DNA from: Patescibacteria group bacterium
GTDB lineage: Bacteria; Patescibacteriota; Patescibacteriia; Patescibacteriales; UBA12075
Direction of reading: 5' to 3'
DNA length: 43,773 nt
Assembly (NCBI GenBank): GCA_022705905.1
Contig: JAKJDO010000005.1
Location: 1 to 43,773, forward strand
Shown: one piece after another, positions 29,411 to 31,483 of the stretch
How the letters are laid out: each line of letters begins with the position of its first letter
Position numbering within the stretch: position 1 is the first letter of the stretch
The notes under the pieces: model-generated
Told to the model about the DNA's origin: nothing
What the model saw: only the letters and a program-made list of their open reading frames with translations
Databases searched by the model: none
Made by a program: the position numbers and the translations under genes

Positions 29411-30922
29411 ATGAAATTTTCTAAATCGAAAATTTTTTTATTTTGTTTAATAGATTTTATTGTTGGTGTCGGTATTGCTTCATTTTTGCCGCCGGAGTAT
29501 TTAATTAATGATTTATATTGGTTTGTTGTCTGCCTGTTTTTTGGTTTTTTGGTTATAGTATTTTGGCGGAAACTTAATATCAGATTAATAGGCTTTTTAG
29601 CCTTATTTTTATTTTTAGGGATATGGCGCTATTCTTTCGGTCTAGCTGTTTCTTCTGCGGACGATATTAGTTATTACAATGGTCAGGAAATAAATTTTAC
29701 CGGCAATATTATTAGCGAGCCAGATATTAGGAGCGCAAATCAAAAATTAAAAATTGGTAATATCAAGCTGAGAGACAAAAGTAGCGATATAAAAGGAATA
29801 GTGCTTTTGACTGCCAATCGTTATCCGGAATATGATTATGGCGATCAGTTATTAATAAAATGCAAGTTAAAAGCACCAGAGAAATTTAATGACTTTGCTT
29901 ATGACCGGTATTTAGCGCGCTATAATATTTACTCAGTTTGTTATTATCCTAAGATCAATAAGTTGAGCAGTGATAATGGCAATAAATTGTTAGCTACGAT
30001 TTATGATTTTAAAAATATTGTCCGCAATAAAATAAATCGTAATTTAGCTGAGCCACAAAGTAGTTTAGCGGGCGGAATTTTATTAGGCGACATGCGCAAT
30101 GCCGATGAAAATTTGAAGTTGGCTTTTTCCAGGTCTGGTCTAAGTCATTTGACAGCTGTTTCAGGAATGAACGTTAGTATTTTAGCCTTAGTTTCTATAT
30201 CAATTTTACTTTTTGTCGGAATGAAACGCCGCTATGCCTTTTATATTGCAACTTTATTTTTGGTTGTATTTATTATTTTGGTCGGGATGCCGGCCAGCGC
30301 TGTGCGCGCCGGGATTATGGGTTTTTTGGCTTTACTCGCTTTAAATATTGGTCGGCTAAATCGCATCACCAACGTTTTATTTTTAACCGCTGCTGTTTTA
30401 TTATTTTTTAACCCCAAATTATTGCGCGACGATATCGGTTTTCAGCTGTCTTTTTTAGCAGTCCTTGGTATTATTTATATTTATCCTTTATTTAATATTT
30501 TTTCCAATAAAATGAAGACAGCTTGGCTAAAAGGCATTTTTGATATTTTAGCCATTACTTTAAGCGCGCAAATTTTTACTCTACCAATTATTGCCTATAA
30601 TTTTTCAATAATATCGTTAGTGGCGCCGTTATCAAATTTGTTGGTTTTGTGGTGTATTGCTTTGTTGACGATTGGCTTGATGATCGCTTTATTTTTAAGT
30701 TTTTTATTGCCAGTTTTGGCCTGGTGGCTTTTTTTGCCTTTTGATCTGCTTTTACGGTATGTGGTAAAGGTGGGCGAGATGAGTGCCGCTTGGCCGTTAG
30801 CTTTTTTAGAGATTGACCATTTGTGGCCCGGTTGGTTGTTTGTCTATTATTTTATAGCCGGTTCAACGGTCGCTTATTTTACGAAAAAAAATAAAATTCA
30901 GGATAATTTAATTTATTTTTAA
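29411..30922 (+). CDS. comEC: ComEC/Rec2 DNA-uptake channel (DUF4131 + Competence domain; no beta-lactamase domain)
   Basis: OB-like segment, GILLGD, SGLSHLTAVSGMNV, ASAVRAGIMG, DIGFQLSFLAV and LSAQIFTLPI motifs. Confidence 0.92.
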   Translation: MKFSKSKIFLFCLIDFIVGVGIASFLPPEYLINDLYWFVVCLFFGFLVIVFWRKLNIRLIGFLALFLFLGIWRYSFGLAVSSADDISYYNGQEINFTGNIISEPDIRSANQKLKIGNIKLRDKSSDIKGIVLLTANRYPEYDYGDQLLIKCKLKAPEKFNDFAYDRYLARYNIYSVCYYPKINKLSSDNGNKLLATIYDFKNIVRNKINRNLAEPQSSLAGGILLGDMRNADENLKLAFSRSGLSHLTAVSGMNVSILALVSISILLFVGMKRRYAFYIATLFLVVFIILVGMPASAVRAGIMGFLALLALNIGRLNRITNVLFLTAAVLLFFNPKLLRDDIGFQLSFLAVLGIIYIYPLFNIFSNKMKTAWLKGIFDILAITLSAQIFTLPIIAYNFSIISLVAPLSNLLVLWCIALLTIGLMIALFLSFLLPVLAWWLFLPFDLLLRYVVKVGEMSAAWPLAFLEIDHLWPGWLFVYYFIAGSTVAYFTKKNKIQDNLIYF

Positions 30923-31001
30923 CTGGTATCGTGCTATAATAAAGTTATATAATGTAAATTAACAAACGAATATAATATGCTTGTTTGCAAAGTTGTTGGT
31001 T

Positions 31002-31250
31002 AAAAAAGCTTCACCAAAGCTATTACAAGTTTTGGATCAAACAGTTAAGATTGGCTATCCGAGTCTCTGTCCTTTTTTGAAGAACAGAGTAGGATGCAAA
31101 GGTAAAATAAGTCTTAGTTCGTTCCATTAAAGGATGTCATGAGTAAATGAACGTCTCGTGAAAATGAATTGAGACTGACTGTTAAAATAGTTTAGCAGGA
31201 CCTATTGTTTTAAGCCAATTCTTGATTAGCCATTTTGGTGGAGCTTTTTT
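31002..31250 (+). ncRNA. Candidate large structured non-coding RNA (family not recognised)
   Basis: 17-bp closing stem (31002-31018 with 31234-31250, one G-U pair), several internal helices and a crossing helix; no long ORF; TGCTATAAT extended -10 at 30932-30940. Confidence 0.55.
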
Positions 31251-31318
31251 AGTACTTTAATTATCCTGGACATTAGTCCAGTTTTTTTGTAGGATTAAAG
31301 TGTATTTAGCTGTATTTA

Positions 31319-31389
31319 CGGAGTATAGTATAACGGTAGTACGCGTCCATGGGGTGGATGTAGCCTGGGTTCAATTCCCAGTACTCCGA
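31319..31389 (+). tRNA. tRNA-Pro (GGG); CCA not encoded
   Basis: Acceptor stem CGGAGTA/TACTCCG, D arm, anticodon arm CGTCC-ATGGGGT-GGATG, T arm CTGGG-TTCAATT-CCCAG. Confidence 0.93.
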
Positions 31390-31401
31390 CAGAAAAAGAT
31401 A

Positions 31402-31478
31402 GGTGGACGTGTTGGCGAATAAGTTATAGCCGCGGTTCTCTGTCTGCCGGCAGGCAGAAATTCCGCTCAGCTCGACCA
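31402..31478 (+). other. Degenerate tRNA-like element carrying a TGCCGGCA palindrome, ending in CCA
   Basis: D-arm-like GGC-GAATAAGTTATA-GCC; T-arm-like GCGG-TTC...GAAATT-CCGC interrupted by TCTGTCTGCCGGCAGGCAGA; ends ..CTCGACCA; no anticodon arm. Confidence 0.45.
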
Positions 31479-31483
31479 AAAAT

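What the first reader, a model, noticed from the sequence alone, without database searches (positions are those of the whole stretch)
30932..31250. Orphan ~250-nt pseudoknotted RNA between comEC and tRNA-Pro
Seen: an extended -10 (TGCTATAAT, 30932-30940), an 8-codon ORF (MLVCKVVG*, 30977-31003), then a 17-bp closing stem (31002-31018/31234-31250) ending in a U tract. The stem continues as GCTA/TAGC and CAAG/CTTG. AGATTGGCT (31048-31056) pairs with AGCCAATTCT (31213-31222). Internal helices are ATCC/GGAT, CTCTGT/ACAGAG, CGTTC/GAACG, GTCTC/GAGAC and AATAG/CTATT. AACAGT (31040-31045) with ACTGTT (31178-31183) crosses the 31051/31213 helix, forming a pseudoknot. I could not match it to RNase P, tmRNA, SRP, 6S, a group I/II intron or a common riboswitch. 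Inference: an undescribed ncRNA, ribozyme or attenuating leader for the downstream tRNA and accessory genes.
Basis: partly seen in the sequence, partly recalled or inferred. Interest (0 to 1): 0.75.

Follow-up and report, generated by a model that had tools for sequence, protein, structure and literature searches.

The report
Abundant 6S-like RNA of Patescibacteria
This is a real, very highly expressed non-coding RNA gene of about 230-250 bases, conserved in one order of ultra-small (Patescibacteria) bacteria and absent from RNA catalogues; its fold and a built-in alternative helix most resemble 6S RNA, the RNA that blocks RNA polymerase.

Summary
The structured element at 31001-31251 (+) is real. 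It folds far better than shuffles (z -7.3). It has single-copy homologues in 78 of 301 genomes of the same order (Falkowbacteria and relatives). In 38 diverse sequences 94.7% of modelled pairs form, and 39 of 46 pairs show compensatory changes. In four metatranscriptomes it assembles as a stand-alone contig at 59-206x, against 2-5x for neighbouring mRNAs. No Rfam 15 family matches it.

The AACAGT/ACTGTT pseudoknot pairs in only 50% of cells. AGATTGGCT/AGCCAATTCT competes with a better conserved helix (P2).

The corrected fold has a long closing stem, a large central bubble, a terminal hairpin (P3) and a branched domain in the 3' strand of the bubble. The distal 5' bubble (AUUGGC) can pair with the 3' strand of P2 in 59 of 70 sequences, like the "central bubble collapse helix" of B. 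subtilis 6S-1 RNA. The P2 5' strand (AAGUUUUGG) resembles the product-RNA templates of B. subtilis 6S-1 and 6S-2.

My best reading is a divergent 6S-type RNA (about 50%). The main rival is a new class of trans-acting structured RNA (about 30%). A tRNA-Pro(GGG) gene follows it on the same strand in 38 of 70 genomes, often within about 12 nt, so co-transcription looks ancestral.

The parts
30932..30940 (+). Extended -10 promoter TGCTATAAT of the RNA gene; it overlaps the region just after the comEC stop codon (30920-30922).
   Evidence: Read directly. A TGnTAnAAT box lies upstream of nearly all homologues, 25-100 nt before P1.
30947..31000 (+). A/U-rich 5' leader, apparently removed from the mature RNA. 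It contains the non-conserved 8-codon ORF at 30977-31003.
   Evidence: No metatranscriptome contig covers it although the RNA body is at 59-206x. The leader sequence is not conserved.
31001..31019 (+). P1, 5' strand of the closing stem (UAAAAAAGCUUCACCAAAG).
   Evidence: Pairs with 31233-31251. 16 of its 17 modelled pairs (the 13-pair and 4-pair segments) show changes on both sides; 94.5-98.6% of cells are paired.
31026..31035 (+). P2, 5' strand (CAAGUUUUGG), the helix next to the bubble. Under the 6S reading it is the "downstream duplex" and product-RNA template.
   Evidence: Pairs with 31215-31224 and is nearly invariant. The outer pairs are compensated (C-G 47 / U-A 17 / A-U 2; A-U to G-C; G-C to A-U). 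It resembles the B. subtilis 6S-1 and 6S-2 templates deduced from their pRNAs (PMC3923129).
31036..31056 (+). 5' strand of the central bubble: AUCAAAC...AUUGGCU. The distal AUUGGC (31050-31055) is complementary to GCCAAU (31214-31219).
   Evidence: I found no consistent pairing partner for it in the ground state. AUUGGC/GCCAAU is pairable at 5 or more of 6 positions in 59 of 70 homologues and excludes P2.
31057..31095 (+). P3, the terminal stem-loop (AUCC/GGAU, CUCUGU/ACAGAG). Most homologues cap it with a C(CGUG)G tetraloop.
   Evidence: It gives the strongest covariation in the family (helices 5-7). G-C pairs close the bubble on this side.
31096..31214 (+). 3' strand of the bubble with an inserted branched domain. 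The domain comprises P4 (31100-31103/31200-31203), junction AAAAU, the long hairpin P4a (31110-31176, apical GGA..UCU) and the hairpin P5 (31179-31186/31191-31198). It is followed by CCUAUUGUUUUAAG.
   Evidence: P4 and P5 pair in 91-95% of cells with double changes. Per-sequence folds give the same three-way layout. Two homologues replace the domain with one 8-9-bp hairpin.
31215..31224 (+). P2, 3' strand (CCAAUUCUUG).
31233..31251 (+). P1, 3' strand, ending in the U tract 31245-31250; this is the likely 3' end and intrinsic terminator in this lineage.
   Evidence: RNA contigs end at 31239-31244 and there is no coverage beyond. The U tract is absent in lineages where the tRNA abuts the RNA.
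31266..31288 (+). Second hairpin plus U7 (CUGGAC AUUA GUCCAG UUUUUUU), a back-up terminator. Its 5' arm is the -35 box of the tRNA promoter.
   Evidence: Read directly.
31267..31295 (+). Separate promoter for tRNA-Pro: TGGACA (31267-31272), 17 nt, TAGGAT (31290-31295).
   Evidence: Read directly. The same TGGACA / -10 layout stands in several relatives (alignment A4).
31319..31390 (+). tRNA-Pro(GGG), the conserved downstream partner gene.
   Evidence: ARAGORN and Rfam. It lies on the same strand within 310 nt in 38 of 70 homologues, and within about 12 nt in about 17.

Best explanation
The locus encodes a stable, very abundant, trans-acting RNA that is most likely the 6S-type RNA of this Patescibacteria order.

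Shown:
- The gene has its own extended -10 promoter.
- The mature species roughly coincides with the P1-enclosed fold (about 31001/31019 to 31244/31251).
- The conserved fold consists of a roughly 30-bp closing stem (P1, P1b, P2), a large central bubble closed by G-C pairs on both sides, and a terminal hairpin (P3).
- The 3' bubble strand carries a hairpin. In 68 of 70 members this hairpin has grown into a 70-100-nt three-way domain.

Inferred, by analogy with B. subtilis 6S-1 RNA:
- The RNA mimics an open promoter and sequesters the housekeeping RNA polymerase holoenzyme.
- The polymerase uses the 5' bubble and P2 5' strand (..CAAGUUUUGGAUCAAAY) as template for a short product RNA, roughly (G/A)UUUGAUCCAAAACUU.
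- That product unzips P2. The freed 3' strand (GCCAAU) then pairs with the distal 5' bubble (AUUGGC), collapses the bubble and releases the polymerase.

Ancestrally the RNA was made as one precursor with tRNA-Pro(GGG), so RNase P cleavage at the tRNA would set its 3' end. In the window's family a U tract after P1, a second terminator and a new tRNA promoter have uncoupled the two genes.
For: Reality and expression:
- z = -7.3 for the + strand.
- 78 of 301 genomes and 47 of 96 genera of the order have one copy each.
- The structure is 94.7% paired against 74.9% in shuffles; the covariation score is 0.575 against 0.216 (0 of 500 shuffles) and 0.10-0.16 when slid.
- RNA contigs stand at 59, 122, 73.5 and 206x, against 2-5x for flanking mRNAs and zero on the immediate flanks.
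- There is no conserved ORF.

6S likeness:
1. In the two minimal members (matches of 178-180 nt) the MFE fold is a closing stem, a bubble with one 8-9-bp hairpin in its 3' strand, and a terminal stem-loop.
2. The 5' bubble strand is 17-26 nt (median 21) with no conserved partner.
3. GG/CC closes the bubble on the P2 side and CC/GG on the P3 side. The B. subtilis 6S-2 consensus has the bulge closed by G-C pairs (PMC3923129).
4. AUUGGC/GCCAAU is mutually exclusive with P2. All 6 bp can form in 43 of 70 sequences and 5 bp in 16 more. The only homologue with a change in the invariant CCAA (L034, A to U) compensates it in AUUGGC and not in P2. [quoted passage not shown]
5. The predicted product GUUUGAUCCAAAACUU shares 12 of 15 aligned positions with the 6S-1 pRNA GUUCGGUCAAAACU. 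It shares the AAAACUU run with the 6S-2 pRNA AAAGGUUAAAACUUAA. This comparison is my own alignment by eye.
6. The genome has RNase P RNA, tmRNA and 5S, 16S and 23S rRNA elsewhere, but no RF00013 match anywhere.
Against: - Rfam's 6S model (RF00013) gives no match, even at E<=10 with lax filters, on the window or on the two short homologues. Formal family membership is therefore not met.
- 68 of 70 members carry a large, conserved, branched domain in the 3' bubble strand (conserved AAAU junction, apical GGA/UCU). To my knowledge (not checked here), no described 6S RNA has such a domain, and extra 3'-bubble hairpins impaired release in 6S-1 mutants (PMC8876501).
- P3 is shorter (about 15 bp) than the usual upstream arm.
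- P2 and the 5' bubble are far more sequence-conserved than is typical of 6S.
- The CBCH-like helix shows conserved complementarity but almost no covariation.
- The similarity to the B. subtilis templates covers only about 15 nt.
- A tight linkage to a tRNA gene is, to my knowledge, not reported for 6S genes; I did not check this.
- Polymerase binding and product RNAs could not be tested.
- RNA contigs start at 31019 or 31026, just after the P1 5' strand. The exact mature ends, and whether P1 survives in the mature RNA, are not settled.
Confidence: 0.5

Rival explanations
1. It is a new class of compactly folded, trans-acting structured RNA unrelated to 6S, comparable to the raiA motif/ModT or OLE RNAs. 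It would be the RNA subunit or scaffold of an unknown ribonucleoprotein, or a ligand-binding or catalytic RNA. On this reading the conserved junction nucleotides build a tertiary core, and the 6S-like features are coincidental.
For: - No Rfam family matches.
- Many invariant unpaired nucleotides sit in junctions (GAUCAAA, AUUGGC, AAAU, GGA/UCU, AACCYAYUG).
- The branched P4/P4a/P5 domain is kept in 68 of 70 members.
- The RNA is very abundant.
- Its size, abundance, independence as a transcript and position beside a competence gene parallel the raiA motif RNA (PMC10861870).
Against: - It does not account for the conserved alternative pairing of AUUGGC with the P2 3' strand, or for the open-bubble topology seen cleanly in the two minimal members.
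- No protein gene is consistently adjacent across families.
- CsrA and Hfq are absent from the genome.
Confidence: 0.3
2. It is a cis-acting leader or processing module of the tRNA-Pro(GGG) transcript. The large fold and the terminal helix next to the tRNA 5' end would control read-through into the tRNA or its RNase P processing, and the abundant RNA would be only the stable by-product.
For: - tRNA-Pro(GGG) follows on the same strand in 38 of 70 homologues, and within about 12 nt in about 17, where no U tract intervenes.
- In the g58 lineage the outermost P1 strand (AAAGAAC-like) ends 1-2 nt before the tRNA.
- In the window's family P1 is followed by a U tract, like a giant terminator hairpin.
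Against: - 32 of 70 homologues have no tRNA within 300-400 nt (some are limited by contig ends).
- In the window and its relatives the tRNA has its own conserved promoter behind one or two terminators.
- The internal sequence conservation far exceeds what a processing stem needs.
- The RNA accumulates 20-80 fold over nearby mRNAs.
- The T-box-like features I looked for fail: UGGC does not match the A73 discriminator, and the CCY triplet is paired within P4.
Confidence: 0.1
3. It is a highly divergent copy of another universal RNA (SRP RNA, RNase P RNA, tmRNA), or a mobile or retron-type element.
For: - No SRP RNA is detectable in the genome.
- ACAGAACC and AGGAA..AAAG superficially recall RNase P CR-V and CR-I.
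- The long closing stem recalls retron a1/a2 repeats.
Against: - RNase P RNA (110.7 bits) and tmRNA are elsewhere in the genome.
- Neither Ffh nor FtsY is encoded, so an SRP RNA has no partner, and the domain IV motif is absent from this RNA (my reading of the sequence).
- The RNA is single-copy, vertically inherited and syntenic, with no reverse transcriptase nearby.
- It is absent from viral contigs.
Confidence: 0.03

Closest known systems
6S RNA (SsrS), especially the Firmicutes 6S-1 type (B. subtilis bsrA; Rfam RF00013)
   Same: - It is an abundant, independently transcribed RNA processed from a longer precursor.
- It has a long closing stem, a large central bubble closed by G-C pairs, a terminal stem-loop and a hairpin in the 3' bubble strand.
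- The distal 5' bubble is complementary to the 3' strand of the bubble-proximal helix (CBCH geometry).
- The 5' strand of that helix carries an AAGUUUU run, as in the 6S-1 and 6S-2 product-RNA templates.
   Different: - There is no match to RF00013.
- Typical length is 240-270 nt rather than 180-200 nt.
- The 3' bubble hairpin is expanded into a conserved three-way domain of 70-100 nt.
- The upstream arm is shorter.
- P2 and the bubble sequence are nearly invariant.
- The gene is linked to tRNA-Pro(GGG).
- Polymerase binding and product RNA are untested.
raiA motif RNA / ModT (Rfam RF03072; PMC10861870, PMC11706538)
   Same: It is a structured RNA of about 200-250 nt with many invariant junction nucleotides, among the most abundant non-rRNA transcripts, trans-acting, and often just downstream of a competence gene (comFC there; comEC or a ComEC-like MBL gene here).
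   Different: There is no sequence or structure match. The helices differ, no supported pseudoknots were found, and the phyla differ (Bacillota and Actinomycetota against Patescibacteria). The neighbouring genes differ too: comEC and tRNA-Pro rather than comFC and raiA.
RNAs matured through an adjacent tRNA or tRNA-like structure (MALAT1/mascRNA; stable RNAs in bacterial tRNA/rRNA operons with RNase P and processing stems). This comparison rests on my own knowledge.
   Same: In many lineages the RNA abuts tRNA-Pro, so RNase P cleavage would create its 3' end. A long terminal helix joins the sequences that flank the mature RNA, as in rRNA processing stems.
   Different: Here the upstream RNA is itself a conserved, complex fold with its own likely function. 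In the window's lineage the two genes have been uncoupled.

Membership tests
6S RNA (RF00013) | Match to the curated covariance model | tested here: not met
   No RF00013 match at E<=10 on window 30850-31480, on the two short homologues L069 and L075, or anywhere in the genome.
6S RNA (RF00013) | Rod-like fold: closing stem, large central bubble, terminal stem-loop | tested here: met
   P1/P2 and P3 covary. The 5' bubble strand is 17-26 nt and unpaired. The minimal members fold exactly this way. Caveat: 68 of 70 carry a 70-100-nt branched insert in the 3' bubble strand.
6S RNA (RF00013) | G-C pairs closing the bubble on both sides | tested here: met
   UUGG/CCAA ends P2 (G-C 68-69 of 70). CC/GG opens P3 (C-G 41-46 of 70).
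6S RNA (RF00013) | Rearrangement element that uses the 3' strand of the bubble-proximal helix (CBCH, or an extended 3'-bubble hairpin) | tested here: inconclusive
   AUUGGC/GCCAAU is pairable in 90% of cells, with 5 or more of 6 bp in 59 of 70 sequences, and excludes P2. There is one compensated change (L034). There is too little variation for covariation statistics.
6S RNA (RF00013) | Binds the housekeeping RNA polymerase holoenzyme and templates short product RNAs | not testable with these tools
   This needs biochemistry or small-RNA sequencing. Only the template-like sequence similarity to the B. subtilis 6S-1 and 6S-2 templates was seen.
6S RNA (RF00013) | High cellular abundance as a discrete stable species | tested here: met
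   Stand-alone contigs at 59-206x in four metatranscriptomes, against 2-5x for the neighbouring mRNA fragments.
raiA motif RNA (RF03072) | Match to the model; six major base-paired regions (P1-P6, further stems to P8) with two covarying pseudoknots | tested here: not met
   No match at E<=10. No supported pseudoknot.
Bacterial SRP RNA (RF00169 / RF01854) | Domain IV (helix 8) motif and an Ffh partner | tested here: not met
   No model match in the genome. No SRP54-type GTPase domain is encoded.
T-box leader (RF00230) | Specifier codon in a loop and a UGGN bulge matching the tRNA discriminator, controlling a downstream terminator | tested here: not met
   No model match. The CCY triplet is paired in P4. 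UGGC/UGGA do not match the A73 of tRNA-Pro. The tRNA has its own promoter.

The most novel reading that the evidence does not exclude
The RNA is not a 6S RNA but a new class of ornate, highly abundant RNA specific to one Patescibacteria order. It would have been born and kept in a transcription unit with tRNA-Pro(GGG). Its conserved three-way domain and switchable P2/AUUGGC helices would serve an undescribed function, for instance an RNP or sensor tied to translation in these minimal cells, which in the genomes sampled here also lack the SRP system.
Probability: 0.3. Interest if true: 0.8.

Novelty: new variant of a known kind. Interest (0 to 1): 0.66.

Why it matters
Patescibacteria (CPR) have tiny genomes, and almost nothing is known about how they regulate themselves. 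Apart from rRNA, tRNA, RNase P RNA and tmRNA, I found no conserved housekeeping RNA described for them in the literature searches I ran.

This locus adds a conserved RNA that is 20-80 times more abundant than the neighbouring mRNAs in the 20-kb stretch examined.

If it is a 6S RNA, three things follow:
- Growth-phase control of RNA polymerase by promoter mimicry would extend to CPR.
- The 6S-1-type "bubble collapse" release mechanism would be shown to be old and widespread.
- It would be a natural 6S variant with a large extra domain whose role can be tested.

If it is not a 6S RNA, it is a new large structured RNA class with a precise covariation-supported model, ready for biochemistry. Either way the alignment can seed a new covariance model, which would improve the annotation of thousands of metagenome-assembled genomes.

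Tried and rejected
- Extra helix between AAAYNNN (5' bubble) and AYUGNNN (3' bubble): only 36-70% paired, rejected.
- RNase P-like reading (ACAGAACC resembling CR-V): rejected, because a bona fide RNase P RNA is elsewhere.
- SRP RNA: rejected.
- T-box-like sensing of tRNA-Pro (CCY-A as specifier, UGGN): rejected.
- CsrA/Hfq sponge: neither protein is encoded.
- Retron or mobile element: single copy, syntenic, no reverse transcriptase, absent from IMG/VR.
- Small protein gene: no conserved ORF.
- boxA reading of the G[UC]UCUUU leader box: ambiguous. In the g58 lineage the box is simply the outermost 5' strand of P1 and pairs with AAAGA(A/G)C before the tRNA. The genome's own rRNA leader has GAACTTTGACAAC.
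- Raw-read runs X38 and X39: no reads, so exact RNA ends and strand come only from contigs, the promoter, the U tract and G-U pairs.
- A DNA-alignment query to the genome search is not accepted.
As a result I could not run a class-level pattern search or compare RNA depth with RNase P RNA and tmRNA.
- The genome contigs pattern scan returned mostly chance hits; 26 of 119 were true.
- (large flank alignments) were an unnecessary detour.

Full report
**1. What is in the sequence**

The flagged stretch lies between comEC (29411-30922; Pfam Competence plus DUF4131) and tRNA-Pro(GGG) (31319-31390).

The + strand of 30995-31260 folds to -88.9 kcal/mol, with z = -7.3 against dinucleotide shuffles. 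The - strand reaches only -65.4 kcal/mol.

Rfam 15 finds nothing here except the tRNA, either at gathering scores or at E<=10 with lax filters.

**2. The element is conserved, single-copy and restricted**

- BLASTN found one copy per genome in about 20 of 40 relatives.
- A covariance model built from 20 sequences (R1) found one copy in 78 of 301 genomes and 47 of 96 genera of the same order. The only second hits were weak matches on the opposite strand of the same site.
- R1 found none in 400 other genomes of the phylum at E<=1e-4. That search used the stricter filters, so this is a lower bound.
- Record titles of true hits name Candidatus Falkowbacteria, Parcubacteria and Patescibacteria MAGs.
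- Viral contigs hold none.

**3. Structure**

I aligned 70 homologues to the model (A5) and a diverse subset of 38 (A7). On these I tested a structure made of P1, P2, P3, P4 and P5.

- 94.7% of cells pair, against 74.9% in shuffles.
- 39 of 46 pairs show changes on both sides.
- The covariation score is 0.575, against 0.216 in shuffles (0 of 500 reach it) and 0.10-0.16 for slid partners.

In window coordinates the helices are:

| Helix | Coordinates | Note |
|---|---|---|
| P1 | 31001-31019 / 31233-31251 | closing stem |
| P2 | 31026-31035 / 31215-31224 | CAAGUUUUGG / CCAAUUCUUG |
| P3 | 31057-31060 / 31092-31095 and 31065-31070 / 31084-31089 | terminal hairpin |
| P4 | 31100-31103 / 31200-31203 | |
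| P4a | 31110-31176 | long variable hairpin, conserved apical GGA..UCU |
| P5 | 31179-31186 / 31191-31198 | |

P2 is 98.7-99.3% paired, and its variable outer pairs are compensated.

The many G-U pairs, the much lower reverse-strand scores (211 against 29 bits), the promoter and the U tract all fix the + strand as the RNA strand. No ORF is conserved.

**4. Expression**

Logan contigs of six RNA runs each hold a single stand-alone contig inside the element:

- 31019-31239, 31026-31243, 31019-31243 and 31026-31240 at word depths 59, 122, 73.5 and 206;
- two further runs at 2.8 and 4.1.

There is no coverage of comEC, the leader or the tRNA flank. The few mRNA fragments in the surrounding 20 kb are at 2-5x. 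So this is a discrete, stable, very abundant RNA.

The promoter-proximal leader (30947-31000) is not part of the abundant species. Contig ends cannot fix the termini to better than about 15 nt. Two raw-read runs gave no reads.

**5. Context**

An extended -10 (TGnTAnAAT) precedes nearly every homologue, 25-100 nt upstream of P1.

comEC lies upstream only in three families. In one genus it lies downstream on the other strand. In the g58 lineage the upstream genes are a ComEC-like MBL protein and ndk.

The conserved partner is tRNA-Pro(GGG). It follows on the same strand within 310 nt in 38 of 70 homologues. In about 17 it starts within about 12 nt of the end of P1, with no U tract between. In those lineages the RNA and the tRNA must be one precursor, and RNase P would create the RNA's 3' end.

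In the window's family the two genes are uncoupled. A U tract after P1, a second hairpin terminator (31266-31288) and a TGGACA-N17-TAGGAT promoter separate them.

A G[UC]UCUUU box in the leader looks like boxA. In the g58 lineage, however, it is the outermost 5' strand of an extended P1, pairing with AAAGA(A/G)C just before the tRNA. I leave its meaning open.

**6. What kind of RNA**

The genome has RNase P RNA, tmRNA and 16S, 23S and 5S rRNA. It has no SRP RNA. It also has neither Ffh nor FtsY, so the RNA is not an SRP RNA. No RF00013 (6S) match exists anywhere in the genome.

Once the two wrong helices are removed, the topology reads as follows:

- a closing stem (P1, P1b, P2);
- a 17-26-nt unpaired 5' strand (AUCAAAY...AUUGGC);
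- a terminal hairpin (P3);
- a 3' strand carrying a structured insert;
- the return strands of P2 and P1.

Two natural variants (matches of 178-180 nt) have only a single 8-9-bp hairpin in the 3' strand. They fold as a textbook 6S-1-like molecule. G-C pairs close the bubble on both sides.

The distal 5' bubble, AUUGGC, is complementary to GCCAAU, the inner end of the P2 3' strand. All 6 bp can form in 43 of 70 sequences and 5 bp in 16 more. The single homologue that changed the otherwise invariant CCAA (to CCAU) compensates in AUUGGC (giving AUGGC), not in P2.

This is the arrangement described for the central bubble collapse helix of B. subtilis 6S-1 and A. aeolicus 6S. [quoted passage not shown]

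The P2 5' strand plus the proximal bubble (CAAGUUUUGGAUCAAAY) would template (G/A)UUUGAUCCAAAACUUG. The B. subtilis products are GUUCGGUCAAAACU (6S-1) and AAAGGUUAAAACUUAA (6S-2) (PMC3923129). By my own hand alignment, 12 of 15 positions match 6S-1, and all three share the AAAACU(U) run.

**7. Weighing**

These points make a 6S-type polymerase-sequestering RNA the best single explanation. I put it at about 0.5, not higher, for these reasons:

- The curated model does not match, even on the short variants.
- The 3'-bubble domain is large, branched and conserved in 68 of 70 members.
- P3 is short.
- The alternative helix lacks covariation.
- The sequence resemblance is short.
- Nothing could be tested about polymerase binding or product RNA.

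The main rival (0.3) is a new class of trans-acting structured RNA in the manner of raiA/ModT (PMC10861870). A purely cis-acting tRNA-Pro leader (0.1) is disfavoured by the separate tRNA promoter, by the homologues without an adjacent tRNA, and by the accumulation of the RNA.

**8. Novelty**

I found no description of this RNA in Rfam 15 or in the paper library. I file it as a new variant of a known kind (6S-like), and the new-class reading remains open.

This prevented a class-level search and a depth comparison with RNase P RNA and tmRNA.

Noticed in passing
whole genome G000 (outside the finding) and 120 other Patescibacteria genomes: No SRP54-type GTPase domain (Ffh, FtsY) and no SRP RNA were detected in this 99%-complete genome. 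The same holds for 40 relatives in the order. In an 80-genome sample of the phylum the only match was one weak partial hit, while all 14 control genomes matched. The SRP pathway may be missing from the whole group. I found no paper saying so.
   Followed up: partly
L021:1501-2141 (G000 contig C36:8700-9340, minus strand): The type-A RNase P RNA match (110.7 bits) spans about 640 nt for a 367-position model, which implies one or more large insertions.
   Followed up: no
window 31266-31295: The back-up terminator hairpin after the RNA (CUGGAC-AUUA-GUCCAG-U7) contains the -35 box TGGACA of the tRNA-Pro promoter. Terminator and promoter are therefore superimposed. The TGGACA / -10 layout recurs in relatives.
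   Followed up: partly
leaders of homologues, e.g. L024:1440-1500, L071:270-300; window 30980-30995 (GCUUGUUUGCAAAG): A conserved G[UC]UCUUU box lies between the promoter and P1 and resembles rRNA-operon boxA. In the g58 lineage it is instead the outermost strand of P1, paired with AAAGA(A/G)C just before tRNA-Pro.
   Followed up: partly
L069:301-478 and L075:301-480 (minus strand): Two homologues lack the whole P4a/P5 domain and are only 178-180 nt long, with a single hairpin in the 3' bubble strand. They are natural minimal versions, useful for experiments.
   Followed up: yes
window 29411-30922; L150:2860-3768 and relatives: The window's ComEC (503 aa) matches only DUF4131 plus the Competence domain. 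In the g58 lineage a separate 302-aa protein with a ComEC-type metallo-beta-lactamase motif, followed by ndk, sits upstream of the RNA.
   Followed up: no
genome G000, ARAGORN list: ARAGORN lists a tRNA-Ile with anticodon UAU, which to my knowledge is unusual in bacteria. Only 34 tRNA genes were found; no tRNA-Phe, tRNA-Asn or tRNA-Pro(UGG) was called in this assembly.
   Followed up: no
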